DNA of 64,000 bases from Podarcis vaucheri (lineage: Eukaryota), in assembly GCA_965113315.1 (NCBI GenBank), contig OZ220369.1; one strand, given 5' to 3'. Both the position numbers and the translations under genes were made by a program. Numbering within the stretch: the stretch's first letter is position 1; the number at the start of each line of letters is the position of its first letter. Positions 12,906 to 50,157 of the stretch are shown here, piece by piece. The notes under the pieces were generated by a model. It did no database searches. It was given only the letters and a program-made list of their open reading frames with translations, and was not told the origin of the DNA.

Positions 12906-14080
12906 GTAAGTTCCAAGGTTTCACTAGGCAGGTATTTTGTATTTGATGTGGTGAGAAACACAAACTCCTGTATAGGGCCCCCAGATGGATTTAAAATTTG
13001 GGGATTTATCTGCGTTTCCTATTTTGGGTTTGGAAACGGAAGTGATTCCCGCCCCAGTGGCTGGTATCTTGTGGATCTGTAGAGGATATTTCCTGCAGCT
13101 GGTTGGATACTTGGTCCTAAGACGGAAGACTTCCGATGGTCATCCTCGATTATGGAGCTATTCTTCTAGAACTTCTAGAACAATCTCATTCTTGGATAAC
13201 GTTAAGGCTTTACTCGGATGTATCCTTATTATCAAATGGAGCTATTTCGTTACTGCAAGCCTCAAAACCCAGTATGGAGTATCTTCAGAATGTAGAACCT
13301 ACAAAGTCTTGGAGAAGCTTCATGGCTAGTTTTTTCAGGGTTTTTCTGGTGTGCATAGTTTATGTATAGAATTGGATTGATTCCAAAAATTTCTAGTAGG
13401 CTTTTTAAAAGTTATGCATTCATCGTCTTGGATTCTACAAACAACCTCTAGCCATGGGAATACATTGTGGTATGGTGAAGACAGCAGAAGGCAGCTTTTG
13501 ATGTTTCCACTTTTGGATCTACACCACTTCCGTATATCTTGGGATTACTGTTCCTCATGGTATTGGCAAAAGTGAAGGAGATGGACACTGCTAAATCTTG
13601 GAAATTACAGGCCGTCTGTTAAGGTGCTGGAATAATGGCTACTACCTCGAATTTGTGGGATGGTACACAGCCAAGATCCCAGTGGCCCAGGGGAGTGGAT
13701 TACTATCTAGACTTGTTAAGAGCGCACTTGTCACTGTACAGTTAAAAGGCACTTTAGCTTTAAAGACTGTTTATAATCAGCTTGTGGATACATAAAGAGA
13801 AAATTGACTTTGTTGGATGGTTACAAAGATGGACAGAGGATGTCTGCTAGCCAGCAGTGAGACATTCATCTATTCATATATTGGTGTATTTTCTACCAAC
13901 TGTTTGATTCAGACTTAGAGCTGGAGTCACTCTCTTTTGTTGGATATACCTAGACGTGATTTGCTGCCTGAAGAATGAAGTCTGGGGGTTACAGAATCCT
14001 CATGTCAATCTGGGACAACTGGCTTCCAGTGGATTTTTTCCCCTGTTTGTCACTAAGATTTTTTTTCTTGCTCGCTCATC

Positions 14081-14244
14081 NNNNNNNNNNNNNNNNNNNN
14101 NNNNNNNNNNNNNNNNNNNNNNNNNNNNNNNNNNNNNNNNNNNNNNNNNNNNNNNNNNNNNNNNNNNNNNNNNNNNNNNNNNNNNNNNNNNNNNNNNNNN
14201 NNNNNNNNNNNNNNNNNNNNNNNNNNNNNNNNNNNNNNNNNNNN
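14081..14244. other. Assembly gap (164 N) in intron 2
   Basis: Run of N. Confidence 1.
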
Positions 14245-16049
14245 ATTAGCTCCTCTCCTAACCCAAGTCAATCCCTCTTTCCACTAACTCCAGTAGTAAT
14301 TAGTACTAATAGATAATCAGCTGCTGTAGTCATTAGATTTTCAGCTCTGCTAGTTCTTTTGTCTGTCTTCTGTGTCCTTCTAATGGATAAGGAGCTCTTT
14401 TACTATACCAGTAACCCTCTAGGAGTATTGCTTCTGTTCCTTTATTACACCAGCTCTCACTGGCATAATGTTCCATAGGGTGCAAAGTGCTGCTTGTTTT
14501 TCTTCTTTTAAGGAAGAAGACACACATGCACACACACGTGCACACATTTGGAAACAGTTTGCTGCCTTATTTGCATGTAGCTGCAAATAATTGGAAATGT
14601 ATATTGTGCATTTTGGAATTTTGCTTTGCATTTCTGTTAAGACAACTCTGAATTGCTCAAGAGGCAGGAATTCAGAGAAAAGAAAGCCTTTAAGATTCAT
14701 CAAGCACCTTCATCTCAGGGATTACTAGCCCTGTGCTTGACATGCATGTGTAGGAAGAGAGAGAAATTTATAATCAAGGAAGATTCTAATCCACTTTTAA
14801 GACTAAACAAAAGAAAAATACAAGAGAGTTCAAGCTTTTGAGAAGATCTGTCCTGGGACCCAGCAGAAGAGGAGGAACTGTGGGGGTGGAGGTGGGAGAG
14901 GATTGAGTGCCTAGAACTGAAGTAGCTGTGAATTGGTTTTCAAAGAAGACTGTTGAAACAAAGGGAGATGGCTTAAAACCCTTCTTCCTAAAATGGGGCT
15001 TTAAATTTTGCAACTAACTCAGGCTCTGGCTTATTACTAAATCCACAAACATTTCCTGTTGAATTACTATTTTTCTTGATTAGCCATGCCGCTAAAGATT
15101 GGCCATCATTTTACTTTTAATAAATTAGAGTACTAAACTATTGGAAGCCTTCTGGGTCATTCTGCTTTCTGTTTTGAAATACTATCCTATGAAAATACTC
15201 ATCAGTGTTCTGGGCCATAGAACTGAGTCACAGGCACAGTGTTCTCATTAACTCTGAAGTACATAGTAGAGCAAACTGCTGATTATTTATGTGGAGTATA
15301 GAAACTGTGGCAATTAGCTTTATTCTTTAAATATTAATACCCCACTTTTCTTTGATTCAAAGCTGCTTACAAAAATGCCCACAGCTTACCAGTAAATCTT
15401 GCTTTGGGGACTTAACGCCTTTTGTGGGCATGGCTTTGTCTCCACATTGTCTGTGGCACTTAAAAGTACCTACCTCTTGGATAATTAATAGGATCAATGT
15501 ATTGAGCATTCGCTGTTCTGACATTATATCCAAGGAATCTTAGCAACTAACTTGCCTTTTCTGGACTCATGCTTTTCTCAGGGGCTTTCATGGCCAGCCA
15601 AACATTTAGCAAAAGATCTTCAGCATACCCATGCAATGAAAAATATGAATAGTTGTAATTATTTAGAATCCTAGAGCATTGTGCTCCTAGAATAATTATA
15701 TTTTAAATTGGTGGTTTTTCAAAAAAAAAAAACAAAACTATATGAAAATCATTCAGGGCCCAGAAGATCATTAGTTTGTTCTGTGATGCAGAACTCTGGT
15801 CATGAAAGCCCAGTTTATTCAGTGAAGCAGAATCAGTGCCAAGCTGTGCTGTACCTAGATGTAACTGAGGAGTTGTGTGGAAGAACCAAGCTCATTGGTT
15901 TTGCTTTATAGTCATTATAGTCATTTAGAGTCATTTATTATTAATATTACTTGTGAAGATCGCCAATGCCACACTAAATGTTTGCATGATGTTGGGACCT
16001 TCTCCTCCATCTCTGATTGACATAAATATTTTCCCCCTCCTAAATGCAG

Positions 16050-16526
16050 GGCTTCAGATAACAGGGAGCGTGCTTATGAACATAGTGCCTATGGACACCA
16101 TGAACGGGGGACAGGAGGATTTGATCGGACAAGACATTATGATCAGGATTACTATAGAGATCCTCGAGAGCGGACTTTACAACATGGACTCTATTACAGT
16201 TCTCGGAGTCGCAGCCCGAGCCGTTTTGATGCTCATGACCCCCGTTACGAGCCTCGGGCCCGGGAGCAGTTTACTTTGCCCAGCGTGGTACACAGGGATA
16301 TCTACAGGGATGATCTCACACGGGAGGTACGAGGCCGGAGGCCAGAACGGAATTACCAGCACAGCAGGAGCCGGTCACCACATTCATCCCAGTCTAGGAC
16401 CCAGTCTCCTCAGAGGTTGGCGAGCCAAGCGTCAAGACCTACTAGGTCCCCTAGTGGCAGCGGCTCTAGGAGCAGATCATCAAGCAGTGATTCAATCAGC
16501 AGCAGTAGCAGTACCAGCAGTGACAG
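16050..16526 (+). CDS. SPEN: SPEN exon 3 (477 nt; Arg/Asp/Ser-rich)
   Basis: Acceptor aaatgcAG|GGCTTCA, donor GACAG|GTATGT; encodes ASDNRERAYEHSAYGHHERG...SSSSTSSD. Confidence 0.95.
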
Positions 16527-17597
16527 GTATGTAAACGCCCCTGTCATATTTTCATCCTGGAATATGAATTCCCAAGGATTACCTATGGGATATTGCAGTG
16601 TCCTTTTCTTATTGCTCTATTCCCCTGTGCCCCCTGAAGACCTGTACCTTCAGCATTTGAGCCCCTGCTTAAGAATGAAGTTGTTGACATTTATATGTAC
16701 TACATTTCAAAATGTGTCAACTTAAATGGTGCCTCATGGAACAAAGTTAATATGATTGGTTTCATACGGCTTTCCCACTTCTATTTAAAATCCAGTGCCA
16801 ATTATCAGTCATTGTCTGCCTTGCTTTCTCTTCTCCCACCCCCTGCCTGCATGTGTTTTTTCCAGCAAATTTTGTTAGTTTAAAGGAGTAACCTTCTCTT
16901 AGTAATGACGCCTGAGAGATGAATGGAGTGTTGGTTTTAAACTGTGGCTGTAGCTGAATGGATTACTGTGGCAAAATAATGTTGTTCAAGCTTAGCAAGG
17001 ACTTGATAGAAGGATTTTTTTGTTTTGTTTTTATTTTTCAATGAAGAGCTGTGGGAGAATGAGAGAATTTTTGGAATAGAATGTGTATCATATGAAACTG
17101 GTTTTAAAGGACTGTATCTTCCTTCCCAGTCAAATTGCATGTGTGTACAGGCGACAGCCATTTTAGGCATGTCCAATTGATGAACGGGGGTGGAACGGGA
17201 CAGGGTGAGGCACACTTGTATGTACTGGCACACTTGCTTGTCCTCGCAAAGCCATAATTTGCCTATGTGTTTTATGTGAACCATGTCCTAATGTTCATTA
17301 CAGGTACTTGGGAAAAGTGCTATAGATGCTTGTAAATAATTGGTAGCTCTGAAAATTAATTTTCTCCAATCAGCAAAGGACTTTGCAAAAGAAGGGCCCA
17401 ACATTGCAATGTTATCCTCTATTGGTGTCTATAAAAATCTCACCAACTGAAATGTGTTTTCAGTGTTTCATCAAACTAATTTTTGTCTTCCTTATTCTAG
17501 TTAGTGCTTGACCACAAGTACAAGGTTTTTGCAGACTTGACTCTGGCATACTTGCCTGAAATACTGATTTGTGTTGCTGAATGTATTATTTCCAGCA

Positions 17598-18099
17598 TTA
17601 GATATATAAGCTATTTGCCAAATGGCACCTTAAATCTAGGTTACAATCCCCATTTTTTTGCAATGAAATTATTATTATTATTAATTTCATTTGTATACTG
17701 CTTTATATTTCAAAGAGGAAAAAAAATCTCAAAGCATTTTACAATACATTAAAACAGAAAATTAAACAACCCAGAATAAAACAAATGCAAGTTTCAAGGG
17801 AAATATTCCCTATATTTATTTACCTGCTTAATTTATATAGCTGCCCCATATCAGAAGTACTCTAGGAAGCCAGTGTGGTGTACTGGTTAGAGTGTCTGAT
17901 TGGGACCTGGGAGGTCAGGGTTCAAATCCCCATTCAGTCATGAAGCTCACTGGGTGATCTTGGGCCACTCACAGCCTCCTAACCCCTACAGTGACCCTGT
18001 GAGGTAGATTAACTGAGGAGCAGGATGAACCATGTATTCAAAGGTGGGATATAAATGCAATAAAGACTGTAAGTTCTTCTGCTCACCTTCTTAAGAAAG
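17598..18099 (+). repeat. Composite repeat copy A: unclassified AT-rich element plus an embedded Squam3-like SINE (17865-18063)
   Basis: Colinear with the reverse complement of 32315-32860; its 5' module is also present at 21669 and 36343. Confidence 0.75.
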
Positions 18100-18889
18100 C
18101 TGGAGGGGCCAGTCAGATGGAGATGTCAGAGGTCAACCTCTGCAGTTGGACCCGTAGCAGTTGCAGAACGTGCCTAGTGCCTGGGGAATTTCAAACAGTG
18201 ATTATTTCACATTGGGCTTGTGATACTCACATACTTGTGGTGAAGCCCAGCTTTCAAGTAATGTTACTGTAGAGACCACAGAGCTTCTTTTTATCTAGAA
18301 TGTGTTTCGAGAATTCCACTTGAATTATTTCTTGTGTTTTCTAATGTAGTTGCTGTGATTAATGGACTATGACTCTTTGGTTAAACCAGATGAACTTTAG
18401 AAAGAATTTGTCTTCTTTGTTGAAACTTGCCCTTGTCATGGATTTTTAAAAAATTGATTACTTGCATGTATCCTGAAACATGAAGATGAAAATTACTGTA
18501 GTGAAAGGTGCTAGAAAAACCACCATGACTTAACATTCGGGCTTCCTGAGACTTGGCTGAAGAGATTGGTTGCTGTCTCTTGCTTACCAGCCTCCTCTCC
18601 TGGAGTGAAAGTAGACTTTGGCAAACTTTATTGCATTACATAATACTGGCCATTCCCTCCTGTGGCACCCCCTCCTTTCTTTCCTGCTCTGGAATTTGCC
18701 AACTAAGGATGAATCACTTGCTTAAAATGGTATTTAGTGGAGTGTGGGTGGGTTAGGTGCTTCCTGTTCATGGGGACAATTGGGGAAAACTGCTTCAGAA
18801 CTTAGGCTCAACAAAGGCCATTTTCCATGTGCTTTTGCTCCTGGAGAAGCAATTTGAGTGGAGAACTTCAGCAGGAACGGTATGGTCTG

Positions 18890-18891
<2 letters not shown>

Positions 18892-18977
<86 letters not shown>
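18892..18977 (+). repeat. Compound microsatellite (GT)n(GA)n
   Basis: Seen directly. Confidence 0.98.
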
Positions 18978-20567
18978 TTAGCCTTGTATAAAAGATCTGA
19001 ATTGTTTCTGTTGCCTGTCATCCCCATGCTAATGGTGCAAACATTCAGGAACATAACTAGTTTCTTCCTTCCTTTCTTAATTTAATATTGGATGTCCCTG
19101 CCCCCACCCCTCCATGCATACACACAGTTCTTCAAGAGAAAGAGCCCTGTTCATTTTTACATATTACGTTGTTATGATATTTTTATGTATTTCTTTTAGG
19201 ACAAAGAGAACTTTCTTAAGCCAGAAGCTGAATGACTAAAACGCCTGTTGGCTAGCTTCGGTTGCAGGGTTGTAAACTGCGGATTGTGTTAGCTTCTCTC
19301 TAGAAAAGTAATTTCAAAAGCTGCCCTGTCAGATATGCCTTTCTCTTGCTCTTTAAGGCTCTCCTTAGCTGCTCAGTCTCTTCCAGAGGTGTTAACATTC
19401 CTTGCCTTAAGCTGTCCCCTACTGTTCAGCAGTGTGGAGTGTAGCTATCAGGCATGTTGATTTGTGTGTCTGTGTTTAGCCTTTCTTTTCAAGGCTGCTT
19501 GCTAGGATGTTCTGTTCCTGTTCATTCAGATGCTTTGCATTCAAAAGCATTTCTTGAATAATTCCGTCTTGAGGCTTTGTTTTCATTTGTACAGGTCTAA
19601 GTCAAGGTGCATTTGCATATCAGCCATGTTTGCAGGGAGTTTATTTGATTTCTGTCTCACCCTTTAGCAAGTTCCCAGTGTGGCGTAGCAAAAATTATAA
19701 TTACAGTGAAACGAATTAAAAGAAAAACACTGGTATTCCACCTTCCCCCACTCAGATAAGGTGGCCAGAAAAATGTGGGCAAACCAGGCCTCAGGTCTCC
19801 ACAGCTGATAAGGGAGGAGTAGCCTTGTATGCTGTGGGAGCTGCTGTGTCCAAATAGTGTCGACTGTGCAAGGACCTCCTTGTTTGTGTTCCCAGAACCA
19901 GTCTGAACTGGAATCATCCAGTCGGATTTGGCCGTGTGCCACCTCCCAAGAGGCTGTGTTAGATGTAGGTCCTGCCGGCCTGGTGTTTTGTTTGTACAAA
20001 GCAGAAAGTTGTGGGAGAGAGCTGAGAGCAACAAGCAACTCCTCAGCCGCTGTGACAGACAGGGACCTCTGGCCATCCCTAGAAGGGAAGGGCTGATCCC
20101 TGGATTTGAAGGGGTGGCTGCTTTAACCTGGGATGCGTACTCTCCGAGGCACACAGCAGTGCAGAAAACCTTTAATTAGGCACACGCTAAAGAGCCAGCA
20201 TCTTTTGAAGTGCTGACTGTTGCACCTTCTATGCTTTATTCATCTTTTGTGTTCAGTCATTATGAACGCTCTCTCTTTATTAGCCCCTGCTGCCTTCTCT
20301 GCAGCAAAGGACTGAAGATTTATTTCCTTTTTTTCTTCCAGTTTTGAATTTTGCTGTTGAAAGTAGTGAGCTTGGGCAAAACAACCCCCAACCAGAGCTA
20401 GGAGGCCTAACTTTAGAACTTGTTTATGTGACCCCCCACTCCAAATATTATTTGATGTGGAGAGTTAGAATTTTTGCCTGATTGACCTGTTTATATTGTC
20501 AGGTCTTCACCCCTCACCCACTGTTGTCATCTTCTACTTTCTCTTTTTCAGGTTTGGCTGAGCACAT

Positions 20568-21790: not shown

Positions 21791-21829
21791 ACCTGAATGA
21801 GTGTACTAAGATTTTGATTGAAAATAAGG

Positions 21830-23669: not shown

Positions 23670-23689
23670 GCCTATCTTTACAGCATTTT

Positions 23690-29256: not shown

Positions 29257-31484
29257 CTATACAAGTATGGAGGCTTTGGGAGAAGGATGGGACTTGTGTG
29301 TAGGAATTAGTTGTAATTACTTCTGCCTACGTGTGTCTGAAAACAAACTTTGATTATTGGATCACTTAAGATTGGCTCTTTTACAATGTATCGGCTAATC
29401 AGATTAGACTTCATTAGAAAGGCACGTAAATAAAATTCTTCTGAGGTCACTGGTCCTCCTCCCCCTGGCAGTAAGTGTATATGAAGAGCGAATCAGAGTC
29501 CAATAACCTGTTTGGGGTTTGGAAGGGCTTGAATTTCTGGAGTTTAAGGGATTACAGGGAAATTTTGCTATCTCTCCTGATGAAAACAGAATTGAAAATG
29601 ATACACCGAGTTTAGAGCTGTGTTAGTGCTCTATGCCAGAAAGAAATCTTAAGTTCTGTCTTAAAGAAATGTGTAAAACCAGTTCTGCAAATTATGTAGA
29701 TTTGCATTCATGCCTATGATCCTTCTGCAGATTACTTGGCTGATAGTGCAGTAGTTCAGTTTATCTTTTGATTTCTAGTTACAGCTTTTTGGTTACATCC
29801 AAGGATAAGATTGATAAGGGGCAGGAGCCATGGAAAAGACTGTGAAGGGAGGGGTATGGAGCATGGAAACTTCTCTTCCCTCTCCCATACACTGTCAGCC
29901 ACCCCCCACCCAGGCCCCAATTTGAATCTTCCACAGAACATAGAATATTCTCTCAGTTCCTCTCTGCAGTTCAAGCCCTAATAGTTTGCTTTACTTGAAA
30001 ATGAAAAGTGAGAGGCTTAGGAATCCCATCTGGTATGTCAGCTTGGGGAAAACACACTGTTTGGTTCGTGTACCACTTTGAGGTCTGCTGTCCTCCCCCA
30101 AAATCAAGTAGTATATAAAATTTATGGACTGAATGAAAGAATGCATCTAATCTTCATACTGCATGTTTGGCACCTTGTATGTACCCCAGGGTGTTGCGGA
30201 AAGGTTGACTGCACAAATGTGGGGGTCTGCAGATGGTTTCCCCCCCACCCCAATCCCGAACAAGCTCTGTGGCTTGGTTGGTCTTGGCTTGGGAGGGACC
30301 GTTTCCATTCCGTGCTTCCCTCTGTGTCCCCCCCATTTAGTTAACTGATTAACCTGCTGTTATAAAGTGTGGTGGTATTAAAACTGGATTGTGGAGTGCT
30401 TTCCTCTGCAGCTCAGTTTGCAGCTTTTAAAAGTGTTCTCTTGCCTGCAAGCACAGTTGCTTTTAATGTGTCATGTGTTTAAGTGAGTGTTTTATTCTCA
30501 GTTCTGCCTTATTTTTACATCTGAACTTCCTAGAGAGCATCTTCGCACTTTCCTTTTCAACACTAATAGATCAGCACTAATAGAAAACTAGGTCACCTCA
30601 GGTACCTGTGCTCTTGGCATGTTTACTAAGCTATTAGGTTCAGAGGCTGTTTGAGTTAATTGACTTGTACAAGACAGTAATGCTTTAGTTTTGCAGATGC
30701 TGCTGAACAGAGGTGTTTGACCAAGGAGCTAAAGCTAACTTAACTATTCAGCAGCTTTAACTCTGTTTTGTGTGTGTCACCTAGCCTGAAAAAGCACAGT
30801 CCATGTCACAAAGTGAACATATGGCAGGTTCTATCAGCTCAAGTTTTGGTAGCAGCAAATCATTAGCCTCACTTCACATATTCCTGAGAGTGAGAAGAGA
30901 ATATTGGAGGATAAATCCCAAATTCCTAGGACACTTGCTGGTGTTAGTTGTTTGTGGTCCAGGCCAGGGGGAGCTTGGGGAGGCGTGTTGCAGGGGGCAT
31001 GCAGCGTTGAGGGAGAGATCAGTTTTAAGTTTTAAAAAGTTTCCTTGGTTGGTTGCCTGGAGGCCTGGAATAATTATTCCCTGACCCACAGATCCAAAGT
31101 GCTACTTTAGGCAAACCCAAGTTGGATGGATATTTGAGGTGGGTTTTTTTTGTGATTGACCCGTAGGAGGGTCTGGAAATAGAGATATGGGACACATATG
31201 CTGTTATTTCTAATAGCAATCTTCTGAAATAGGTTAGTTACAGCAATTACTAGCCCAAGGCCACCAAGGTCATGTTTGAATGGAGCTGAAGACCAGGGTT
31301 TAACATTAATACATTGGACACCTGCCAGCTACACAACACTGGCCTTCAATGAGCCCATGAGACAAGCCTCCCCATCCCAGGCCATATCCCATAATGCTTT
31401 TGTAACTCCCCTTAGTTTGAAAGCAGATTTCCCTGTGGAGTTGATGTGTTAATGGACTGAGAGAACCAAATGCTGAAACTAAGT

Positions 31485-31793
31485 GTTTGGATTTGGATTT
31501 GATATCCCGCTTTATCACTACCCTAAGGAGTCTCAAAGCGGCTAACATTCTCCTTTCCCTTCCTCCCCCACAACAAACACTCTGTGAGGTGAGTGGGGCT
31601 GAGAGACTTCAGAGAAGTGTGACTGGCCCAAGGTCACCCAGCAGCTGCATGTGGAGGAGCGGAGAGAGACTTCAGAGAAGTGTGACTGGCCCAAGGTCAC
31701 CCAGCAGCTGCATGTGGAGGAGCGGAGACGCGAACCTGGTTCACCAGATTACGAGTCTACCGCTCTTAACCACTACACCACACTGGCACCACA
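31485..31793 (-). mobile_element. Young Squam3-type SINE with 12-bp TSD CTGAAACTAAGT and an internal 63-bp tandem duplication
   Basis: Minus strand begins gccagtgtggtgtagtggttaagagcggtagactcgtaatctgg; TSD at 31473-31484 and 31794-31805. Confidence 0.88.
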
Positions 31794-32147
31794 CTGAAAC
31801 TAAGTTTTTCTTCTTTCTTTTAAAAGGGGGCAGGTTACTGTGAAAGGCAGGGGGTTACAGACCTTTGAGAAACCACAGTCCAAAGCTCCAGTGAGAGGTG
31901 AACTGGGTATAAATTCATGTTTTTATTAAGTAATGATGCTTTCCCATGCAAGGAAAGAACCTGCATTTGGCAGTGCCCATCTTCTTTGTTACTGTGGTAC
32001 GTAATCCTCGAGTTCTTCTGGAAATGACTCTTGACTTGCACACCAGAGTGGACGTATTGGTGGGGTGAGACATCTCAGGGGAAAAACAGTGGGAAGCAGT
32101 AATGTGATAAGTGAATGTGATACCTGTAATCACCAGCTCACAGCACT

Positions 32148-33874: not shown

Positions 33875-33902
<28 letters not shown>
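33875..33902 (+). repeat. (GT)n microsatellite
   Basis: Seen directly. Confidence 0.95.
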
Positions 33903-37661: not shown

Positions 37662-38692
37662 TTCTAGATCATTCTCCCTAGTTTTTCTTCCACCTCCCAA
37701 ATAAAATTCTACTTGTCTTAAGCACTGTGAAATTCCTCCTGGGATTTAATTTCTCCTTGTTGCCCTTTCATGCCTTAATTCCCCCACTCCTACTCTACCT
37801 TCAGGTTCTTCCTCCTCCTCTTTACTTATTAAATGTACTAGTCCCTTTTTTGCCATGGGAACTCAAAGCGACAATATTTTAATCAAAAAACAAAACCAAC
37901 ACATACAGCTAAACTGGCATTTAAAAAATGCAATTTTAAATGTTTGTTTCCCCACTGTGCACCTTCATATAGCTTTCTTTTCCTCGGGGCTCCCTGTCCA
38001 TTAGCTTCTCTACCTGCTCTCAGGGCCATCAAAATTTTCAACCATAACCCTGCAATGTTTTAATCTCAACTAACCAACGCCCTTTTTCTCATGGAAGGTG
38101 GACCGTGAAGTGCTCTAAACTGTCCCAGCCATTGCACCAATCAGCCTATCGTAGTCAAGGTGTCACCATGATTAGCAGTTAGCACCAGTTCACGTGAGGC
38201 TGTGAGGAGGGAGTTTTTCCAAGACAAGTAGAGTTGCTTGGATTTGTGAAGATCTTTGTTTATCTTCTTCCTTTTCCTTTTCACATGATTGGGGCTTTAA
38301 GCTTATGCCCAAAAGGGTGTGCGACTTATTCCATGCCCCCGTGACCAATTTATTGAGAACCATTACTTTTGTTTAGTAATTAACAGTCTTCTGACAGCTC
38401 TGGACATTTAGTTGCCAACTAACTTTGTGTTGGTTTGTGGCCCTTTTCTTCAGGCAAGTCATTTTGCCTTGTGTCCTTGTATATGTACAGAAAAGGCAGA
38501 ACATTAATTTCCTAATTATGAGCTTGTCTGTAAGCAGATATGATGTGGGAGTTGCGTTCCGAGGCACCCAACATGCCAGTGAAATTGAGTACAATTGACC
38601 CACTGAAAAATCCTGCAAACACCCGATTCCTCCTCTGCTCTGCTCTGCCCTGCCTCGTTCTGACCTCCCTTGCCCCCATTCTGCCTTTTTAG

Positions 38693-38820
38693 TGATGTTT
38701 CAGTGATGTCTTTATGATGTTTCTGGGTCACTTCCGGGTTCGGCATGATGCTCGTATACACAGTTGTACACATACTGAACTCGTGTAAACATTTGGTTAC
38801 CTGTATATAGTGCGAAAGAC
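38693..38820 (+). other. SPEN: Candidate 128-nt poison (PTC-containing) cassette exon in SPEN intron 3
   Basis: Branch point CTGAC (38660-38664), long pyrimidine tract, ~100-nt AG-free zone, acceptor tttttAG|, donor GAC|GTGAGT; in-frame TGA at 38715-38717. Confidence 0.6.
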
Positions 38821-39329: not shown

Positions 39330-39490
39330 CAGTGACTCCAGCAGCAGCTCAAGCGACGAGTCTCCGGCCCGTTCAGTTCAATCCACGGCAGTTCCAGCAC
39401 CCACCTCCCAGTTGCTTCCATCTCTGGAAAAAGATGAGCCCCGCAAAAGTTTTGGGATTAAGGTTCAGAATCTTCCAGTGCGCTCCACAG
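39330..39490 (+). CDS. SPEN: SPEN exon 4 (161 nt; start of RRM2)
   Basis: Acceptor ttccacAG|CAGTGAC (NAGNAG), donor ACAG|GTAAGA; encodes SDSSSSSSDESPARSVQS...SFGIKVQNLPVRST. Confidence 0.95.
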
Positions 39491-40225: not shown

Positions 40226-40426
40226 ACACCAGCCTTAAAGATGGTTTATTCCACGAGTTCAAGAAGTACGGGAAGGTGACATCTGTGCAGATTCACGGAG
40301 CCTCTGAAGAGCGATACGGACTGGTGTTCTTCCGGCAACAGGAGGATCAGGAGAAAGCGCTCAATGCTTCCAAAGGGAAACTCTTCTTTGGCATGCAGAT
40401 TGAAGTGACTGCTTGGATAGGGCCAG
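40226..40426 (+). CDS. SPEN: SPEN exon 5 (201 nt; RRM2)
   Basis: Acceptor gtgtAG|ACACC, donor CCAG|GTGAGC; encodes TSLKDGLFHEFKKYGKVTSVQIHGASEERYGLVFFRQQEDQEKAL...WIGP. Confidence 0.96.
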
Positions 40427-41076: not shown

Positions 41077-41228
41077 AAACAGAGAGCGAGAATGAATTTC
41101 GGCCTCTAGATGAAAGAATAGATGAATTCCACCCAAAGGCAACGAGAACTCTGTTCATCGGCAATCTAGAAAAAACCACCACATATCACGACCTTCGCAA
41201 CATCTTCCAGCGTTTTGGAGGGATAGTG
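41077..41228 (+). CDS. SPEN: SPEN exon 6 (152 nt; start of RRM3)
   Basis: Acceptor cctccAG|AAACA, donor GTG|GTATGT; encodes TESENEFRPLDERIDEFHPKATRTLFIGNLEKTTTYHDLRNIFQRFGGIV. Confidence 0.96.
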
Positions 41229-43071
41229 GTATGTACAGTGTGCGTGTTTGTATCAGTTCATTTGAGAGAGAAGCATGTTTCAGCTCATTAATTCTAAGCT
41301 CTGAAGGTCCATTAATCTGACAAGTATCACTGGATCTTATTGAGCCATGATCTAGAAATAATAAATTTGGAAGGGGGAAAAGGCAGCTTCCGTATCCCTG
41401 GGTAGCAATGTCTTAACAACCTTACATTGAAAACAACCCTGTTTGCTCTGCTGAATACTCTGAGCCCTACATGTGACTGCCTCCTTTGCTGTGCAAGAAG
41501 AGGTGGCACTTGAGGAAGATGGTTAGAAGGCTTGCCTGGCCCTTCCCACCTACAAGGGCCCAAGGAGGAAGAGCACTGGGGGCAGCTGGGACTTCCCTTC
41601 CTGAAGGGTGCAGCTCTTCTCGCTTTGTCTTGAAGAGGTGGAGCCTTTTCACTTGCTTACTAGGCATTTGCTAAGCTCAAGTCCATGGCTGAACAATGCA
41701 AGTCTGGTTCAGCAGAAACTGCTTCCGCTTCTGTGTGTTTGGCATTGGGGAAGGAGAGTGTGTTAGCAAGCAGGACCGAGAGCTGCCTGGGTTGAGTGTT
41801 GCCAGGCCTTTTAATCTCCCACCTGCATGCAAACTCAGGAGACATCCGGGAGAAAAGAGACTGTCATTTGCGCACACTGACCGTGGCAGTGGGGTATGTT
41901 GCAGATCCACTGTTGTGCGAATGCCTCATCATTAATAGGAAAGTGACCCCTAGGGGTGTGGCTGTTTGTTTTTGCTTTAATTGCTTGCTCACGGCAAGTC
42001 AGTCACCCTAAGTTGGAAGCTCCTATGCTGCTATGTCACTAGAACAAAGACTGACCTGTGTTAGAGAAGTCCCCTCTTTGGGCAAGTCTTTGCTTCCCCA
42101 CCTTTGTTTGGAGCCAAAGGCTTCTGGGAATGGAAGTCTTCTCTGGATCTTTTCCTCTTGTCCTTGGACTTGTTGAAGGTGCTGGAGTCTCCTTCCTTGC
42201 CTGAATCTCCTAACACACTGCTCACAAAGGCAGAAGTGAGTGTTGTTTTGCAAAAATAGAAAGTGTCCCGCTTCTATTTCTAGCTTGGGAGGATGACTCG
42301 TCCTACTCAGAGAACATTGTGCCTGCCTCGGCTCCTAGTCATCAGAGTGAAGGCTGGCCAAAATGTTGTTTATCCTTCTGCCTGCCTAAGCCCATTAAAT
42401 CCCCAGGTAGATAATTTTCTCTAGGACAGGCTTTAAATATTTCCAGAGTATCTTAGTCACTACTTAGATTTCAGCTGTTGCTAAAGATATATATATATAT
42501 ATAAACTAATGCCAGCATTCAGATAACTAATCAGCATCACAATGTTGTTGCATTGTTGCTGTTGTTCATCTGGATTTTATTGTGTGCGTCATCTTGGTTT
42601 AGAATGAGCTGCAAGATGAGGAAGGGAGGGAAGAGTGGATTGTTGTGGTTTTCCATGAGCAGTATTTTTAAGAGCATAAAAATAGGACAGGAACACTGAA
42701 GGGTTTGGGGACATTGTCATTTAGAAAAAGAAGCTGAGGAGGGGAAACTGCTTCTGTCACTTGTTTCCACACCCCAACCTGACCTTGCTGGTTTAGGAAG
42801 CAAAAGAGAGTCCACAGGTGTGAGTGGATACTTGACCTAGGACCACCAGTTGCAGACTCCCACTTATGTTGCTGAGCTTTAGCGGGATGTGTGTGTTTTT
42901 GACTTGCCAACAATTGCTGTAAACTGGGGTCCAGCTGCATCTCTGAGGGCTAACCTGCAAAACTATGAGCCTGCTTCCTCCTTAGCAGGGTGTTCTCTTT
43001 GACCAGCAGTCCTCTTGGTGCCCTGTGGCCTAGTCTGTCTCTCAGTGTGAACTGCTTTCCTTCCCCACCAG

Positions 43072-43197
43072 GATATTGACATCAAGAAAGTGAATGGGGT
43101 TCCCCAGTATGCATTCCTGCAGTACTGTGATATTGCAAGTGTGTGTAAAGCGATCAAGAAGATGGATGGGGAATATCTCGGAAATAATCGTCTCAAG
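43072..43197 (+). CDS. SPEN: SPEN exon 7 (126 nt; RRM3)
   Basis: Acceptor cccaccAG|GATATT, donor AAG|GTAAAT; encodes DIDIKKVNGVPQYAFLQYCDIASVCKAIKKMDGEYLGNNRLK. Confidence 0.96.
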
Positions 43198-43713
43198 GTA
43201 AATTTTCTCCTAGAAGTGCTGCTCTTTGAGGGGGTTTTTTGTTTCCAGTGATTTTAAGTGATTCTTGTCAGCTTGAGTCGTGAAGCAAGGATAAGATGCC
43301 CTTTCTGTTTGCTTGTAGATGAGATTGAATTGTTTCTGGGATTTTTCAGTCCCTCCAGATGGCACGAATGGGCAAAGTTGTTTGACCATCTTGGTGCAGA
43401 ACCTGGAAACTGAATGGGCGTGGAGGTGGCATTTGTTTTCTTGCCCATTCACAGTTTTCTCTCCAGCTCCTTGTCCTGTACAGACTGCAAGTTGCACTTG
43501 ATTCACTTGCCATAGGAAGGGGCCACACTTTGTGTCCATTTAAGCTTCTGGAATTTATGTTAATTAAAACTGGCTTTTAAAAAAACCAAAACTGGCTTAG
43601 TACTTGCTCGCACCTGCTCTACGGGTCTTAGTTTAGAATTAGGCCTGCTCTTGTTAAATGAGCTTAATTGTGAATTCTTTGACTGACTGGAAGTTTTGCC
43701 CTTTTGTGTCCAG

Positions 43714-43827
43714 CTGGGCTTTGGGAAGAGCATGCCCACCAACTGCATGTGGTTGGATGGTCTTTCGACAAACGTGACGGATCAGTATTTAACGCGACAT
43801 TTCTGCCGCTATGGTCCTGTGGTGAAG
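43714..43827 (+). CDS. SPEN: SPEN exon 8 (114 nt; RRM3/RRM4)
   Basis: Acceptor tgtccAG|CTGGGC, donor AAG|GTAGGT; encodes LGFGKSMPTNCMWLDGLSTNVTDQYLTRHFCRYGPVVK. Confidence 0.96.
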
Positions 43828-44845
43828 GTAGGTGGGAGGCTTTCTGCAGCACGAAGAGGTCTCCTCTCTTCCTTCCTCAATAAACCTGCTCTTTTCTGAC
43901 CCCACATTCAAGCTCCGTCCTGAAGACCTGCTTCTGTCTCTATATTTCTCTCTCTCTCCGGGCTGAGCCTATCCTTCCGAGAGGTCCAAAGCTCTCGCCA
44001 CCTTTTTTCCAGTTGGGGAAATGGCATGTTAAGGCAAGCCAAACGTGTGCAGAGAGTGCTTGGTGTGTCTGCCCACCTTCTCTTCCTCCCCTGCCCCCCC
44101 TTTGCAAAACTGTGACTCCCCCTAGAATTGTGGGTGCATGGCCCACTTCAGTGGCAGGGCTCAGATTAGTCGCATTAGATACAGAAGTTGTCTTATGGCT
44201 CCCATTCTAAATGCAGAGGCAACTGACTTCTCCTGCCTCCCCCCTTTAATCTCGCCTCTTCCCCCTTGCAGGTATCTCAGGTACATGCACTGAGCTGCCT
44301 TTTAATCTCTGGAGCAGAGGTTGATCTTAAAGTCATGTAGCACCTCTGCATGAATGAATCATGCAGGGGGGTTGGACAAGCTTGAGCCAGGAATGCCTCC
44401 TGCATAATCTCTGCAGGGAGTGGGTGGGATTTTGAACTCTTGGCATTACTTCCACAGAGCCTGCTGGTGCCTTGTGTCTCAAGCAGCACACGTTTATCTC
44501 CTTAGTGAAACTGTGGTTTGTTCTGTTTTTTAAACAGAATTTGTACTCTCCGGGCATAAAATTTGCAACTGCAGGGAAATAAGTAAAATACAGAAAAACA
44601 AAATAAAGGCCTACCAATGCCTCAAGCCACATGATTCTCAACCTAGAGCAGTCCCTTTCGCCCCTTTTTATTGTCTCTCTTACAAGATGCCTTGTTGCGG
44701 GGAAGGCTGAAAACGCCTCTAAATTTGGTGTTGTAACCGTATCTATTCTCCCTGCCCCTAGTTGCATTTGTTTGCTGGGACTGACGTTTCTGTCCTGTGG
44801 ATGAGGCTCTTATTTTGGTTTTGTTTTGTTTTTTTGTTCTTACAG

Positions 44846-44959
44846 GTGGTGTTTGACCGCTTAAAAGGCATGGCTCTCGTTATCTACAATGAAATTGAAT
44901 ATGCACAAGCTGCTGTAAAAGAGACCAAGGGGAGGAAAATCGGTGGGAATAAAATTAAG
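44846..44959 (+). CDS. SPEN: SPEN exon 9 (114 nt; RRM4)
   Basis: Acceptor ttcttacAG|GTGGTG, donor AAG|GTCTGC (weak); encodes VVFDRLKGMALVIYNEIEYAQAAVKETKGRKIGGNKIK. Confidence 0.95.
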
Positions 44960-46469
44960 GTCTGCAAAATTCAGTTCCTAAAGATTAGTAGTAATGATAA
45001 TAACCAATAGTAAATAATAGGCCAGACAGGGGAATTGCTTAATGACACAGAATGCTTTGCCAAAGTTTTTCTAAGATTGATTATTGTCCCGTCCCCGTCC
45101 CCCCTGCCGAGTGGAGCTGTGCGGGCATCTCCAACTGCTGCTTGCAGCCTTTCCCTTCCTGTCATTTGCTTTGCTCAGTTCTTCTCCTTTCCTAAGTTCT
45201 TTGGCTGCTGGACCTTGTGCCGCTAACATCTCTGCAGCTGTAGAATTTCCTTGGCCCTCTTGGCTCACAGCATTCTTCCCAAGGAGAGATCACCTTGAGC
45301 GCAGGAGTCTTGCCTTGTGTACATGGATGTGCCAGGTGCAATAACCACCTGGCCTGTGCCATTTGGGGCATAGCAAAGGCATGTGCTGTGTCCCATGGTG
45401 CTTTTTCCGAGATGGAGATAAGTTCTACGTCAGAGGAAAGATGTGGTCCTTGTGGTGCATTGGGCACTGTCCAGGACGGCCTTTGAAATGTCGTCTCCTC
45501 TTGTCTTGCTTGGTTATCTGCTTCCAAATAAGACATCCTACCTGATGACAGAAGTGTGGGTGGGTGCTTGCGCACACTCAGTAGGATAGCCCTCCCCAAC
45601 CTAGTGCCCTCCCAGTGTTTTGGACCACAACTCACATCAGCCCCAGCCATCAGGAAGGCACCATATATTTGGGGGGGGGGAGGTAGGCGGGGCAGGGGAC
45701 TGCACTAAGAGGTGAACACCTTAAAGGTGCATTGTAAAGGATGAATTTAACATTGAGCCTCCTGTGTGTTAGTTCTGTAGCTTGTGTGGCTTCAGTGAGT
45801 TTGATGTCTGCCTGCCCTGTTGCTGTGGAGTATTACAAAATGTCTTCCAGTGCATCCGTCTTAAACCTTTTAATTACTGACCTTTGATTAAAATTAGCCG
45901 TTTGGGTTTTTTGACATTGTAACAGGTGTTTGAGGGTTGTTTATTCAACTTCCTGAGAGAGGGATTTATTGAATCTAATTTATAGAGTTGGAAGGGACCC
46001 CTGCAGTGCAGGAACCTCAGCTAAAGCATCCATGACAGATGACCACCCAACCTCTGCTTAAAAACCTCCAAGGAAGGAGAGTTCACAACCTTCCGAGGGA
46101 GGCTGTTCCACTGTTGAACATCTCTTACTGTCAGATCTCAATCTCCTTTTTTGTGACTTGAAGCCATTGGTAGGAGTCCTACCTTCCAGAGCAGGAAAAA
46201 ACAAGCTTCCATGTGACAACGCTTTAGATATTTGAAGATTGCTATTATATCTCCTCTCAGTCTCCTCTTTTCCATGCGAAACATACCTAGCTCCTTCAAC
46301 CGTCCCTCATATAAGGCTTGGCTTCTAGACTCTTGATCATCCTAGTTGCCCTTCTCTGCACACGTTCCAGCTTTTCAACATTCTTCTTAAATTGTGGCAC
46401 CCAGAACTGGACACAGTATTCCAGGGTTGGTCTGACCAAGGCAGAATAGAGTGGTACTATTACTTCCCT

Positions 46470-46793
46470 GTGACGCAGGTGGTGCTGTGGTCTAAACCAC
46501 TGAGCCTCTTGGGCTTGCCGATCAGAAGGTTGGCAGTGCGAATCCCCACGATGGGGTGAGCTCCCGTTGCTCGATTCCAGCTCCTGCCAACCTAGCAGTT
46601 TGAAAGCACGGCAAAAAGTGCAATTAGATAAATAGGTACCACTCTGGCGGGAAGGTAAATGGCGTTTCTGTGCGCTGCTCTGGTTCGCCAGAAGCTGCTT
46701 AGTCATGCTGGCCACATGACCCGGAAAAACTGAGTGCCGCAACCCCAGAGTTATTTGCAACTGGATTTAACTGTCAGGGGTCCTTTACCTTTT
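46470..46793 (+). mobile_element. Sauria SINE nested in CR1, 12-bp TSD TATTACTTCCCT
   Basis: Homologous to the 33022 and 63421 copies; TSD at 46458-46469 and 46794-46805. Confidence 0.92.
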
Positions 46794-47346
46794 TATTACT
46801 TCCCTTGATCTAAACACATCCGTTGATGCAGCTTTTTTTCCTGCTGTATCATACTGTTGCCTCATGTTAAGCTTGTGGTCCACCAAGATCCCTAGATCCT
46901 TTTCACATGTACTGCTAATCACTCAGGTGTCCCCCATCCTATATTTGTGCATCTGGTTCTTCTGTCTAAGTGCAGAACCTTACATTTATCCCTATTAAAA
47001 TTCTTTTTGTTAGCTTGCACCCAGTTCTCCAATCTGTCATTTTGAATTTTGAATTTTGATTCTGTCTTCTGTGGCATTAGCTACTGCTCCCAGTTTTCTG
47101 TCATCTGCAAATTTGATGAGCATCGCCTCAATTCCTTCATCCAAGTCGTTTATAAAGACGTTGAACAACAGGCCCAGGACAGAACCCGCGGCACCCCACT
47201 TGTCACTTTTTTCCAGGATGACGAGAAACCAAAAATGAGTACTCTTTGGGTTCAGTCAGTCAACCAGCTACAGATCCACTTTGTTCAACCTACATTCTAC
47301 CAGCTTCCTTGCAAGAATATTGTGGGGGGGTTAGTCAAAAGCCTTA

Positions 47347-47591
47347 CAGTGGTACCTTGCAAGACGAATGCCTCGCAAGACGAAAAACGCGCAAGACGAA
47401 AGAGTTTTCCGTTTTTTGAGTCGTTCCGCAAGACGAATTTCCCTATGGGCTTGCTTCGCAAGACGAAACGTCTTGCGAGTTTGTTTCCTTTTTCTTAAAG
47501 CCGCTAAGCCGTTAATAGCTGCTAATAGCCGTGCTTCACAAGACGAAGAGACTCGCGGAACGGATTAATTTCGTCTTGCGAGGCACCACTG
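47347..47591. mobile_element. Tc1/mariner (Tigger-like) MITE with TA TSD, nested in the CR1 RT
   Basis: TA|CAGTGGTACCTTGCAAGACGAA ... TTCGTCTTGCGAGGCACCACTG|TA; internal GCAAGACGAA repeats. Confidence 0.92.
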
Positions 47592-49350
47592 TACTGAAAT
47601 CAAGATACACTATGTCCACAGCATTTCTCTGATCCACCAAGTTTGTAATTCCATCAAAAAAAGAAATCAGGTTGGTCTGGCATGACGTATTTTTGAGAAA
47701 CCCATGCTAGGTCTTAGTAATCACATCATCCTTTTCTAAATGACCGACTGTTGAATTATCTGTTCTAGGGCCTTCCCTGGCATTGATGTTAAGTTCACCG
47801 GTTGGTAGTTACCTGGGTCTTCCTTTCCCCTCTTTCTAAGGATGGAGACAACATTTGCTCACCTCCAGTCTGTAGGGACCTCACCTGTTCTCCAAGATTT
47901 CTCAAAGATCATAGACAAAGGCTCTGAAATTACATCCACAACCTCCTTTAGTACCCTTGGATGCAGCTCATCAGGCCTTGGAGATTTGAATTCATTTAAA
48001 GTAACTAGGTGTTCCCTAATACCTCTTTTCCTATCTTGGGACGCAGCTCTCTCCTTACATCATTTATTCTGTTATCACCAGGTTCGGCATCGCTTTCCTT
48101 TTGGGTGCCGACAGAGACAAAGTAGGTGTTGAGTAGTTCCCCCTTTTCTCTGTCTTCTCCAAGGAGAGGATCCACCACTTTCTTGTTCTTCTTCTTACTT
48201 TGGACATAGCCAAATAAACCTTTTTAATTATTTCTAACCTCCTTTGCAAGCCTGAGTTCATTCTGAGCTTTAGCCAGCCTGACTTCCCCCCTGCAACTGT
48301 TGGAATCACACCCAGTAGTTCCTTAAGCTTTATAAAAAATTGCCTTTTTCAAATCCGGAGTGTGTCCCCGACTGCACAGTTTCCCCTTGCCTCTGTATCA
48401 TGAAAGCCAGAAGAACATGATCACTTTCTCCCAAGTTTCTTTGTACTTCCACTTTGTCGATCAGTTCCTCTTGATGATCCCCTTGATGCTTCTTCCACCT
48501 TCTGGGAAATTAAATTGTCGGAGAGGCAATGGAGGAATTTGTTGGACCTTGAATTCTTAGCAGAGTTAGTCTCAACAAATATCACGGAAATTGAAGTTCC
48601 TCTCTTCCTCTTCGGTTTATTCCTTTTGAACAGGTTATACCCTACAATTCCTACATTCCTGTCATGAGTCTCAAGCCACCTGTTTTCAGTAATACCTACC
48701 AGGTCATATTAGCTATCCTGTGCTAAAAGCTCCAATTCATCTTGCTTGTTTGCCATACTCTGTGCATTTGGGGATTTAGTATCTGTGGATTTAGTATTCT
48801 GGGTTTGGCTTGCTGTGTAAGATTGACCAGAGGCATTTTAATTGTAGTTCTTGGGAAAAGCAACAGTAACAGCAAGAACAAGAACAACGTTTCACTAGTT
48901 ATACATGCATTCATGATTAGCTGGTGATCCTTTTGACTAAAACCATACAGAAAAATCACTCTCACATTAACATGTTGAAGAATATAAGTGGCTAAATGCA
49001 CCCTGTCTTCCCCACCTTCCTTATGATATTCTCAGATGTATCTGGTTGGTCATTGCTGAATTGGCCCAGCATGGTTGCTGTTCTTTTTTCATAATGTGTA
49101 TGGCATTATGATACTTCCACACCCACATCTAAGCTGTGAAGTACCATATTCTATTAAAACTAGCATCTACGTTAAACCCCACCAGCAAGCAAAGTTCTCC
49201 TCATCTGATGGTTTAATAGGGCGGGGGGCACTTTTAATCATGTCACAGATCTGCTCTCCTTTCCCTGTGTCTTAAATGCAGATGATGAACCTTTTTTCAT
49301 AATTGGGTGTTATTGGGAGTAACGGGCCTTTAAAAATTCTTGTTTTTCAG

Positions 49351-49451
49351 GTGGATTTTGCAAACCGTGAAAGCCAGTTGTCATTCTATCAATCTATGGA
49401 GAAAACGGGTCAAGATATCAGAGACTTCTATGAAATGCTGGCAGAAAGAAG
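49351..49451 (+). CDS. SPEN: SPEN exon 10 (101 nt; end of RRM4), GC-type donor
   Basis: Acceptor tttttcAG|GTGGAT. The phase-2 donor required to join exon 11 is AAG|GCAAGT. Encodes VDFANRESQLSFYQSMEKTGQDIRDFYEMLAER. Confidence 0.92.
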
Positions 49452-50157
49452 GCAAGTGCCCCTGATGTCTTTACAGCAGCCCAACATGGGTCTCTGGAGG
49501 TTGGGTGGATCTACCCAGCAATTCCTAATTCTATTTTTTTTTGCATTTTTCCTGCCGTCATTTTAATTCTTTTTGGCTTTTTTATTTTTACAATGGATAT
49601 CCAAAATACCATTGTGAGTTGGGGAAGGGGTTAGCAGCCAGTAGCAATTCTGTTTAAATGACTGCAGCTCATAACCAACAGGGGGACATTTTGAGGGAGA
49701 GGCCCAGAGTGCTGTCTCAGGGTGTACATTGGACCAAGAGACATGGATGATGAGGGAGCTGCTGCAGGGACCTGCAACACCTGTGCCATGTTGGCCTTCC
49801 TTCCTGAGAAGGTGCAGAATTGCACCTGCAACAGATATCGCCCAGCCCTGCCAGACACATTCCATGTATAGCAAGGGACTACGGGATTCTGGGCTGGAAG
49901 CTGAAGGGCCTTAGAGCAGAAGGGTTTTTTTCCATCACTCATTCCTGCTGAAGGTCATGGCTTAGGAAAAGCCTCTGAAGCCTCTCTTAGCAGTGGGACG
50001 TGGGGTGGGGGCTATTGAACTAAAGGATCAGCTGCCTGCTTAGAAAATAGCTGTTCTTTTTGTCTTTTGATTGAACCTGTAGCCACAGTAGTCGAGCTGT
50101 ATATGATGGTCTTGATCTGGGGAGAAGCTGACTTTTTTATGTTCCTGGGTTTGGCAG

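What the first reader, a model, noticed from the sequence alone, without database searches (positions are those of the whole stretch)
12906..50157. Synthesis: serial unproductive-splicing checkpoints all lie upstream of the giant exon 11
The intron-2 UGGA field, the intron-3 poison exon(s) and the intron-10 GC/GT donor switch would each abort SPEN before the 7.9-kb exon and SPOC, at domain boundaries (after RRM1, before RRM2, after RRM4). Inference: a multi-input RNA feedback circuit setting SPEN dosage, present in a lineage without Xist and therefore possibly older than X-inactivation. Each element is visible in sequence, but their coupling is a hypothesis.
Basis: inference. Interest (0 to 1): 0.7.

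Follow-up and report, generated by a model that had tools for sequence, protein, structure and literature searches.

The report
One old SPEN splicing brake
Of three proposed splicing brakes in a lizard's SPEN gene, only the one in intron 2 holds up: it matches a methylation-dependent brake known in mouse and is shared with turtles, a crane and a snake, so it looks older than Xist, while the other two brakes and any link among the three remain unsupported.

Summary
The window holds exons 2-15 of a lacertid lizard's SPEN gene.

(1) The intron-2 UGGA field is real: 22 copies against 8.4±2.5 in shuffles. Gene models of a crane, two turtles and a rattlesnake splice from about 1.3 kb inside intron 2 to exon 3. 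Mouse has a METTL3-dependent donor 1,213 nt into the same intron (published). Any extension of exon 2 meets a stop at once.

(2) No intron-3 poison exon could be confirmed. My best candidate misses a splice-site cut-off that 27 other site pairs in that intron pass, and the mouse LeafCutter table has no intron-3 cluster.

(3) The intron-10 GC donor is real and shared with birds. The GT at +5 is ordinary donor consensus (6 of 13 donors here), scores weakly, and no second donor appears in mouse.

'All upstream of exon 11' is expected, since 95% of intronic bases lie there. Only intron 10 is at a domain edge, and nothing couples the three. No lizard RNA reads were examined.

Verdict: one probably amniote-old, m6A-linked unproductive donor, already known in mouse. 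The serial circuit is not supported.

The parts
12585..12905 (+). SPEN exon 2 (321 nt; most of RRM1); donor TGG|GTAAGT, where read-through gives GGG TAA, so every extension stops at once
12906..14300 (+). Intron-2 5' element: UGGA-rich field (about 1.17 kb readable, then a run of N). The distal alternative donor is inferred about 1.3 kb into the intron, in the part that reads N
   Evidence: TGGA 22 vs 8.4±2.5; crane and turtle model N-termini align at 13864-14079; predicted extension about 1.3 kb; mouse donor 1,213 nt in
16050..16526 (+). SPEN exon 3 (477 nt), acceptor of both intron-2 donors
38098..38159 (+). Weak second candidate for an intron-3 exon (62 nt); unsupported
   Evidence: donor score 3.9; not among the 27 pairs
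38693..38820 (+). Best candidate for the intron-3 'poison exon' (128 nt, frame-shifting, stops in all three frames, long pyrimidine tract, 5 CpG); unconfirmed
   Evidence: no Rfam match; no stable fold, z 0.17; no mouse intron-3 cluster
44846..44959 (+). Exon 9 (114 nt, in frame), the commonest alternative exon in relatives; productive, not a checkpoint
   Evidence: 42 of 231 models lack only this exon among exons 2-10; about 10% skipped in mouse
49351..49451 (+). Exon 10 (101 nt), ends after residue 616, at the end of the RRM2-4 module
49452..49461 (+). Intron-10 GC donor (AAG|GCAAGT) with a weak GT at +5 (49456); use of the latter would give a stop 7 nt past exon 10
   Evidence: GC inferred in skink and bird models
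50158..58036 (+). Exon 11, 7,879 nt

Best explanation
This is an ordinary vertebrate SPEN gene with one conserved regulatory splice choice, in intron 2. Shown here: the first 1.2 kb of intron 2 is UGGA-rich and resembles the same region of turtles and a crane; gene models of those animals and of a rattlesnake use a donor about 1.3 kb into the intron; the extended exon 2 carries a stop right after the normal donor. Shown in mouse (published): this region carries m6A and RBM15, the distal donor takes about a third of new transcripts and halves when METTL3 is removed, SPEN binds its own mRNA, and SPEN loss raises it. Inferred: the lizard donor is the orthologue of the mouse donor; writer activity, perhaps helped by SPEN itself, pushes splicing to the distal donor; the product is destroyed by NMD or nuclear decay; SPEN dose is thereby buffered; and the element dates from the amniote ancestor, before Xist. 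The intron-3 'poison exon' is most likely a pseudo-exon or a low-level event. The intron-10 GC donor is a conserved constitutive GC-AG site whose +5 GT is part of the U1 consensus. The three are not a coupled series.
For: TGGA enrichment. N-termini of 5 models (3 crane, 2 turtle) align to window 13864-14079 (E 4e-6 for the crane; 4e-10 and 0.003 for the turtles) and all 5 predict an extension of about 1.3 kb. Crane and turtle peptides agree at 49 of 51 residues. A rattlesnake model ends an intron-2 piece with the same residues before exon 3. Mouse LeafCutter cluster 1930: distal donor 1,213 nt in, share 0.34 falling to 0.17 on METTL3 loss. m6A and RBM15 on Spen intron 2 (PMC8327914 passages). 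Spen binds its own mRNA, which rises on Spen loss (PMC7282817 passage). Against the other two events: no intron-3 cluster and a single exon-10 donor in mouse; GT at +5 in 6 of 13 donors; 211 of 221 models join exon 10 to exon 11 in frame at the usual place or with one added residue.
Against: No lizard RNA was examined, and the lizard's distal donor lies in unread (N) sequence. Orthology with the mouse donor rests on position (1,213 vs about 1,300 nt), not on aligned DNA. DRACH motifs are not enriched in the readable field (17 vs 22.8). The mouse splicing change has q 0.16, and gene-level 4sU change was +0.38 and +0.47 log2, not significant. The mouse paper's main text does not mention NMD. The negative mouse data come from one cell type with a 30-read floor. 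The conservation of the intron-3 candidate could not be measured. The GC donor and, in 6 of 8 read-through models, the +5 GT are conserved. 21 of 231 models start at the first Met of exon 5, which fits a frame-breaking event in intron 2 or in intron 3 equally.
Confidence: 0.62

Rival explanations
1. One reading: three unproductive events (intron 2, intron 3, intron 10) are all used and are jointly regulated by SPEN, RBM15/m6A and NMD to set SPEN dose.
For: One of the three is real and regulated in mouse. The GC donor is conserved across squamates and birds. The three introns are 3 of the 4 among introns 1-10 that do not split an RRM (hand count with recalled RRM spans; 4/120, about 3%, if picked at random). 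Four-base tandem donors are the commonest tandem class and some are real NMD targets (PMC2423196 abstract).
Against: METTL3 loss moved only the intron-2 cluster; there is no intron-3 cluster and no second exon-10 donor in mouse. The +4 site is weaker than the like sites of introns 3 and 8 (0.5 vs 3.1 and 6.5). Position upstream of exon 11 has chance 0.86. The introns were picked after the fact, and domain edges do not matter for transcripts that are destroyed. A SPOC-damaging skip is on record downstream of exon 11 in human.
Confidence: 0.08
2. Two real but independent brakes: the intron-2 donor plus a conserved, tissue-restricted poison exon (or internal first exon) about 0.5 kb before exon 4.
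For: The 128-nt candidate has a long pyrimidine tract, a GTGAGT donor, a frame-shifting length and 5 CpG in a CpG-poor intron. 21 of 231 models start in exon 5. Mouse ES cells may not express it.
Against: Its donor is matched or beaten by 48 of 1,374 GTs in intron 3, and 27 site pairs pass a cut-off it misses. No mouse cluster. No such SPEN exon in the supplements searched of PMC7347940, PMC8091538, PMC10123112, PMC8361881 or PMC11188260 (these lists are selective). Stops in all frames are normal for intron DNA.
Confidence: 0.2
3. The intron-2 element acts mainly as a nascent-RNA docking site: SPEN binds it and damps its own transcription in cis, or m6A sends the RNA to nuclear decay, and the distal donor is a by-product. 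This can coexist with the best explanation.
For: PMC7282817 reads the rise of Spen mRNA on Spen loss as repression in cis; PMC10274648 states that SPEN binds its mRNA to suppress its transcription; m6A drives Xist turnover through NEXT (PMC12618237 passages). The field is much longer than a donor needs.
Against: The donor takes about a third of new mouse transcripts, and its position is kept in turtle, bird and snake models. Neither passage read places SPEN binding in intron 2.
Confidence: 0.25
4. The intron-2 region encodes an alternative N-terminus lacking RRM1, as the crane and turtle protein models literally say.
For: 5 models carry such an N-terminus, in frame with exon 3, with 49 of 51 residues shared.
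Against: The two turtle models read the upstream part in different frames and align to different lizard frames, which points to DNA-level constraint. Translation would have to restart far behind the stop that ends exon 2. Annotation pipelines assign the longest ORF to such transcripts (recalled).
Confidence: 0.05

Closest known systems
Mouse Spen intron-2 m6A-dependent alternative 5' splice site (Wei et al. 2021, PMC8327914)
   Same: Same gene, same intron, distal donor 1.2-1.3 kb in, joined to exon 3; proposed there as part of m6A-machinery self-regulation with Ythdc1, Wtap and Ythdf1.
   Different: Shown there in mouse ES cells only. Here the element is traced to a lizard, turtles, a crane and a rattlesnake from sequence and gene models, with no m6A, binding or RNA data; the UGGA richness was not seen in the passages read.
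SPEN binding to its own mRNA (Carter et al. 2020, PMC7282817; Wolin et al. SPIDR, PMC10274648)
   Same: SPEN feedback on its own transcript is already described.
   Different: Read there as repression of transcription or RNA output in cis; no poison exon, GC/GT switch or serial design in the passages read.
Conserved AS-NMD autoregulation of RNA-binding-protein genes (SR proteins; Lareau et al. 2007, seen only as a reference, content recalled)
   Same: Highly conserved intronic element, stop-bearing isoform, feedback on dose.
   Different: There the poison exon, the regulator and NMD are shown; here only the intron-2 event approaches that standard, and NMD is inferred.
Four-base tandem donors and background unproductive splicing (PMC2423196; Fair et al. 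2024, PMC11387194)
   Same: A GT four bases downstream of a donor is the commonest tandem class; every intron yields some unproductive junctions, more in long introns.
   Different: These describe the background against which the intron-3 and intron-10 claims would have to stand out; so far they do not.

Membership tests
Vertebrate SPEN/SHARP orthologue | Four RRMs, MINT MID/RID region, C-terminal SPOC, giant exon 11 | tested here: met
   Exon 11 product 96% identical to Zootoca SPEN; that protein maps along the window; Pfam RRM x4, MID, RID, SPOC on the orthologue P0004; PDB 4P6Q, 1OW1
Conserved AS-NMD feedback event: intron 2 | Alternative junction is used in RNA | tested here: inconclusive
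   Used in mouse and in crane, turtle and snake models; no lizard RNA examined
Conserved AS-NMD feedback event: intron 2 | Stop more than 50-55 nt upstream of a later junction | tested here: met
   TAA directly after the normal donor, about 1.3 kb before the distal junction and before 12 more junctions; rule recalled
Conserved AS-NMD feedback event: intron 2 | Deep conservation of the element | tested here: met
   Lizard-crane-turtle similarity at 13864-14079; crane-turtle 49 of 51 residues; rattlesnake end piece. Mammals by position only
Conserved AS-NMD feedback event: intron 2 | Isoform rises on NMD block and responds to the host protein | not testable with these tools
   METTL3 response published; no UPF1 or SPEN splicing data found
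Conserved poison exon: intron 3 | Splice sites stand out from intronic background | tested here: not met
   Not among 27 passing pairs; donor matched by 48 of 1,374 GTs (recalled matrix, crude)
Conserved poison exon: intron 3 | Inclusion seen in RNA | tested here: inconclusive
   No cluster in mouse ES-cell 4sU data; lizard not examined
Conserved poison exon: intron 3 | Conserved across amniotes | tested here: inconclusive
   One exact 22-nt scan of metagenome contigs gave 0 hits, uninformative because vertebrate coverage there is unknown
Regulated GC/GT tandem donor: intron 10 | GC donor is the productive site and is conserved | tested here: met
   Frame requires it; 8 of 221 models read through as R then Q or H, which implies GCA
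Regulated GC/GT tandem donor: intron 10 | Competing GT donor is competitive and used | tested here: not met
   Score 0.5 vs 6.1; single exon-10 donor in mouse cluster 1928 (mouse donor type unknown)
Coupled multi-input circuit | Events co-respond to one perturbation | tested here: not met
   METTL3 loss: p 0.002 for intron 2; p 0.43 and 0.16 for the two other Spen clusters; no intron-3 or +4 event to respond

The most novel reading that the evidence does not exclude
The UGGA-rich intron-2 element is SPEN's ancestral RNA ligand: an amniote-old, RBM15/m6A-gated switch in SPEN's own pre-mRNA. With a tissue-restricted intron-3 poison exon and a leaky GC donor that releases an RRM-only, SPOC-less competitor, it would form a dose-sensing circuit whose recognition code Xist later copied.
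Probability: 0.07. Interest if true: 0.72.

Novelty: new member of a known kind. Interest (0 to 1): 0.3.

Why it matters
SPEN is dose-sensitive (haploinsufficiency disorder; recalled) and is Xist's main silencing partner. If the intron-2 donor diverts a third of transcripts and is as old as amniotes, SPEN's RNA-based self-control came before Xist, and blocking that donor would be a direct way to raise SPEN dose.

Tried and rejected
No whole genome is held for this window, so exon 1 and paralogues were not seen.

Sequencing runs: no RNA holder listed. Fourteen contig rows guessed to be RNA held 0.14-0.28 of the words and four raw RNA runs were offered, but no reads were laid on the locus, so none of this is evidence.

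Rfam: 6 and 6 sub-threshold matches, none at the intron-2 field or the intron-3 candidate. The idea that the candidate is a C/D snoRNA was dropped. The candidate folds no better than shuffles (z 0.17); the intron-2 field was folded without shuffles and is not used. No tandem repeat underlies the UGGA field.

An exact 22-nt scan of metagenome contigs gave 0 hits. A protein-based scan for vertebrate loci was not obtained, so DNA-level conservation of intron 3 and the mammalian exon-10 donor type stay open. A protein search with exon 3 found nothing because of its length window.

N-termini of the 14 models that reach exon 4 without exon 3 (one too short to score, one an exon-3 skip) did not match the two intron-3 candidates. 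An in-frame acceptor 75 nt before exon 11 would carry a stop, but nothing supports its use.

Supplements searched for SPEN without an intron-3 or intron-10 event: PMC7347940 (8 files, 0 hits), PMC10123112 (1 file, 0), PMC8361881 (3 files, 0), PMC11188260 (12 of 13 files, 0), PMC8091538 (2 files, 1 row, another event). File 1 of the PMC8327914 supplement was not searchable; Fig. S14 on Spen was not seen and may bear on the donor's position and effect.

Earlier scan findings: nothing relevant. Two Guttman-lab preprints had no passage on Spen introns.
Full report
Gene and coordinates. The window holds exons 2-15 of SPEN on the + strand. The exon-11 product is 96% identical to Zootoca vivipara SPEN, whose cluster also lists Podarcis and Lacerta proteins, so the animal is a lacertid lizard. 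Exons: 2, 12585-12905; 3, 16050-16526; 4, 39330-39490; 5, 40226-40426; 6, 41077-41228; 7, 43072-43197; 8, 43714-43827; 9, 44846-44959; 10, 49351-49451; 11, 50158-58036 (7,879 nt). The finding's ends are the first base of intron 2 and the last base of intron 10. No whole genome is held and no RNA reads were laid on the locus, so all usage evidence is from other species.

Element 1, intron 2: real. In the 1,175 readable bases after the donor, TGGA occurs 22 times against 8.4±2.5 in 1,000 dinucleotide shuffles (0 reach it). It ranks first of 256 4-mers, and the densest 1-kb cluster (21) was not reached in 200 shuffles of the pooled intronic DNA tested (maximum 19). The reverse word TCCA is not raised (4 vs 4.6), and neither is the m6A motif DRACH (17 vs 22.8), which counts against reading the field itself as an m6A array. 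The donor reads GGG TAA, so any extension of exon 2 stops at once.

Among 231 orthologous proteins (the best 120 of 824 hits plus 111 cluster members), three crane and two turtle models begin inside intron 2 and join exon 3. Their N-termini align to window 13864-14079, crane and turtle agree at 49 of 51 residues, and all five place the donor about 1.3 kb into the lizard intron, in a stretch that reads N. A rattlesnake model carries the same last residues before exon 3 (1 of 167 models with both exons 2 and 3). That such models rest on RNA-seq is recalled, not seen.

In mouse, Wei et al. (PMC8327914; passages, methods section and supplement tables read) report m6A and RBM15 on Spen intron 2 and an alternative 5' splice site. 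Their LeafCutter table gives a donor 1,213 nt into the intron with share 0.34, falling to 0.17 on METTL3 loss, p 0.002, q 0.16. Gene-level 4sU change was +0.38 and +0.47 log2, not significant, and the main text does not mention NMD. Carter et al. (PMC7282817, passage) show that Spen binds its own mRNA and that the mRNA rises on Spen loss. Orthology of the lizard and mouse donors is inferred from position only.

Element 2, intron-3 poison exon(s): not confirmed. The best candidate, 38693-38820, is 128 nt with a long pyrimidine tract, a GTGAGT donor, stops in all frames and 5 CpG. With a crude recalled matrix, 27 acceptor-donor pairs in this 22.8-kb intron pass thresholds that it misses, and 48 of 1,374 GTs score as well as its donor. 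The mouse table has three Spen clusters, numbered consecutively: intron 10, exon 9 and intron 2. None is in intron 3 (4sU RNA of ES cells, at least 30 split reads per cluster). Five supplement sets on unproductive splicing gave no such SPEN exon, though they are selective. Rfam and folding gave nothing. In its favour, 21 of 231 models start at the first Met of exon 5; but exons 3-4 hold no in-frame Met, so the intron-2 event explains these equally. Its conservation could not be measured (one search is uninformative). It stays possible, not shown.

Element 3, intron-10 donor: GC real, switch not. The frame needs AAG|GCAAGT at 49452. Eight of 221 models (skink, quail, five other birds, one unnamed) read through this donor as R then Q or H, which implies GCA and so a conserved GC site; six continue with V, so the +5 GT is conserved too. 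But GT at +5/+6 is the U1 consensus and is present at 6 of 13 donors here. The intron-10 copy scores 0.5, against 3.1 and 6.5 for introns 3 and 8, and below 43% of intron-3 GTs. Four-base tandem donors do occur generally (PMC2423196 abstract). The mouse cluster shows one exon-10 donor and an in-frame 69-nt cassette at about 29%, unmoved by METTL3 (exons assigned by their 101- and 114-nt lengths). If the +4 site were used, the stop would fall 7 nt past exon 10, at the head of a 7.9-kb exon. NMD is weak for stops in very long exons (recalled), so it would not be the same kind of checkpoint and might yield an RRM-only protein.

The synthesis. 48,390 of 50,934 intronic bases in the window lie before exon 11, so three elements fall there with chance 0.86 (0.36 by intron count). 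In orthologue numbering, intron 2 follows residue 134, intron 3 residue 293 and intron 10 residue 616; the solved RRM2-4 module spans 335-620. Only intron 10 is at an edge. The alternative splicing that does recur in relatives is in frame: among exons 2-10, 42 of 231 models lack only exon 9, 9 only exon 8 and 9 only exon 3 (models are not independent), and mouse skips exon 9 at about 10%. A human junction enriched in EJC-bound RNA, which I read as skipping exon 14 inside SPOC, lies downstream of exon 11 (PMC8091538 supplement row). Fair et al. (PMC11387194, passages) find a background of unproductive junctions in every gene, higher in long introns. The one perturbation on record moved only the intron-2 cluster.

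Mechanism I commit to (0.62). The m6A writer with RBM15, perhaps aided by SPEN, marks the first 1.2-1.3 kb of intron 2 and favours the distal donor (shown in mouse). The extended exon 2 stops after RRM1 (shown in sequence) and is degraded by NMD or nuclear decay (inferred), buffering SPEN dose (inferred). The element is shared by lizard, snake, turtle, bird and by position mouse, so it predates the eutherian-specific Xist (PMC11112854 abstract start). The other two sites are bystanders.

Novelty. The event and SPEN autoregulation are published for mouse. I did not find the sauropsid conservation or the UGGA composition in searches of an open-access library. This is a new member of a known kind; interest 0.3. 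The three-checkpoint circuit has about 0.08.

Noticed in passing
window:44846-44959 (exon 9), 43714-43827 (exon 8), 16050-16526 (exon 3): In-frame skipping of exon 9 (cuts RRM4) recurs in lizard, snake, turtle, crocodilian, bird and mammal models (42 of 231) and is about 10% in mouse ES cells; exon 8 and exon 3 skips also recur. A conserved way to tune SPEN's RNA-binding module may be the more interesting splicing story.
   Followed up: partly
mouse intron 10 (PMC8327914 supplement, cluster 1928): A 69-nt in-frame cassette exon at about 29% inclusion; no counterpart seen in the 706-nt lizard intron or in the fetched models, which included no named rodent. Recalled as a rodent SINE-derived exon, not checked.
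   Followed up: partly
window:50083-50157: An upstream acceptor 75 nt before exon 11 is in frame but carries a TGA; many bird models instead add one residue at this junction (47 of 221 models, NAGNAG-like), which the lizard acceptor cannot do.
   Followed up: partly
window:39327-39333: The exon-4 acceptor is a CAG-CAG tandem; 8 of 168 models lack one residue at the exon 3/4 junction.
   Followed up: partly
window:38050-38330: A stretch upstream of the candidate exon holds CCAAT- and CACGTG-like motifs (labels recalled); it could be an internal promoter explaining models that start in exon 5.
   Followed up: no
window:60781-60939 (exon 14): A human unannotated junction that appears to skip this 159-nt SPOC exon in frame is enriched in EJC-bound RNA (0.43 vs 0.12 and 0.06 normalised RPM).
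   Followed up: no
window:44960-44969: The intron-9 donor (AAG|GTCTGC) is the weakest of the 13 donors (3.9), which fits the frequent exon-9 skipping.
   Followed up: partly
window:25001-26000 and 30901-31900: Lesser TGGA clusters (13 and 14 per kb), within the range of shuffled maxima.
   Followed up: yes
window:33020-33390, 46470-46790, 63420-63770, 47350-47590, 31601-31728: CpG-rich SINE-like copies (Sauria type, label recalled), a small element with inverted ends and a short internal repeat, and an exact 63-bp tandem duplication inside a repeat.
   Followed up: no
protein P0127 (Podarcis raffonei isoform X8): A model that reads exons 2-3 out of frame and lacks exons 5-9, probably a long-skip transcript given its longest ORF.
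   Followed up: no
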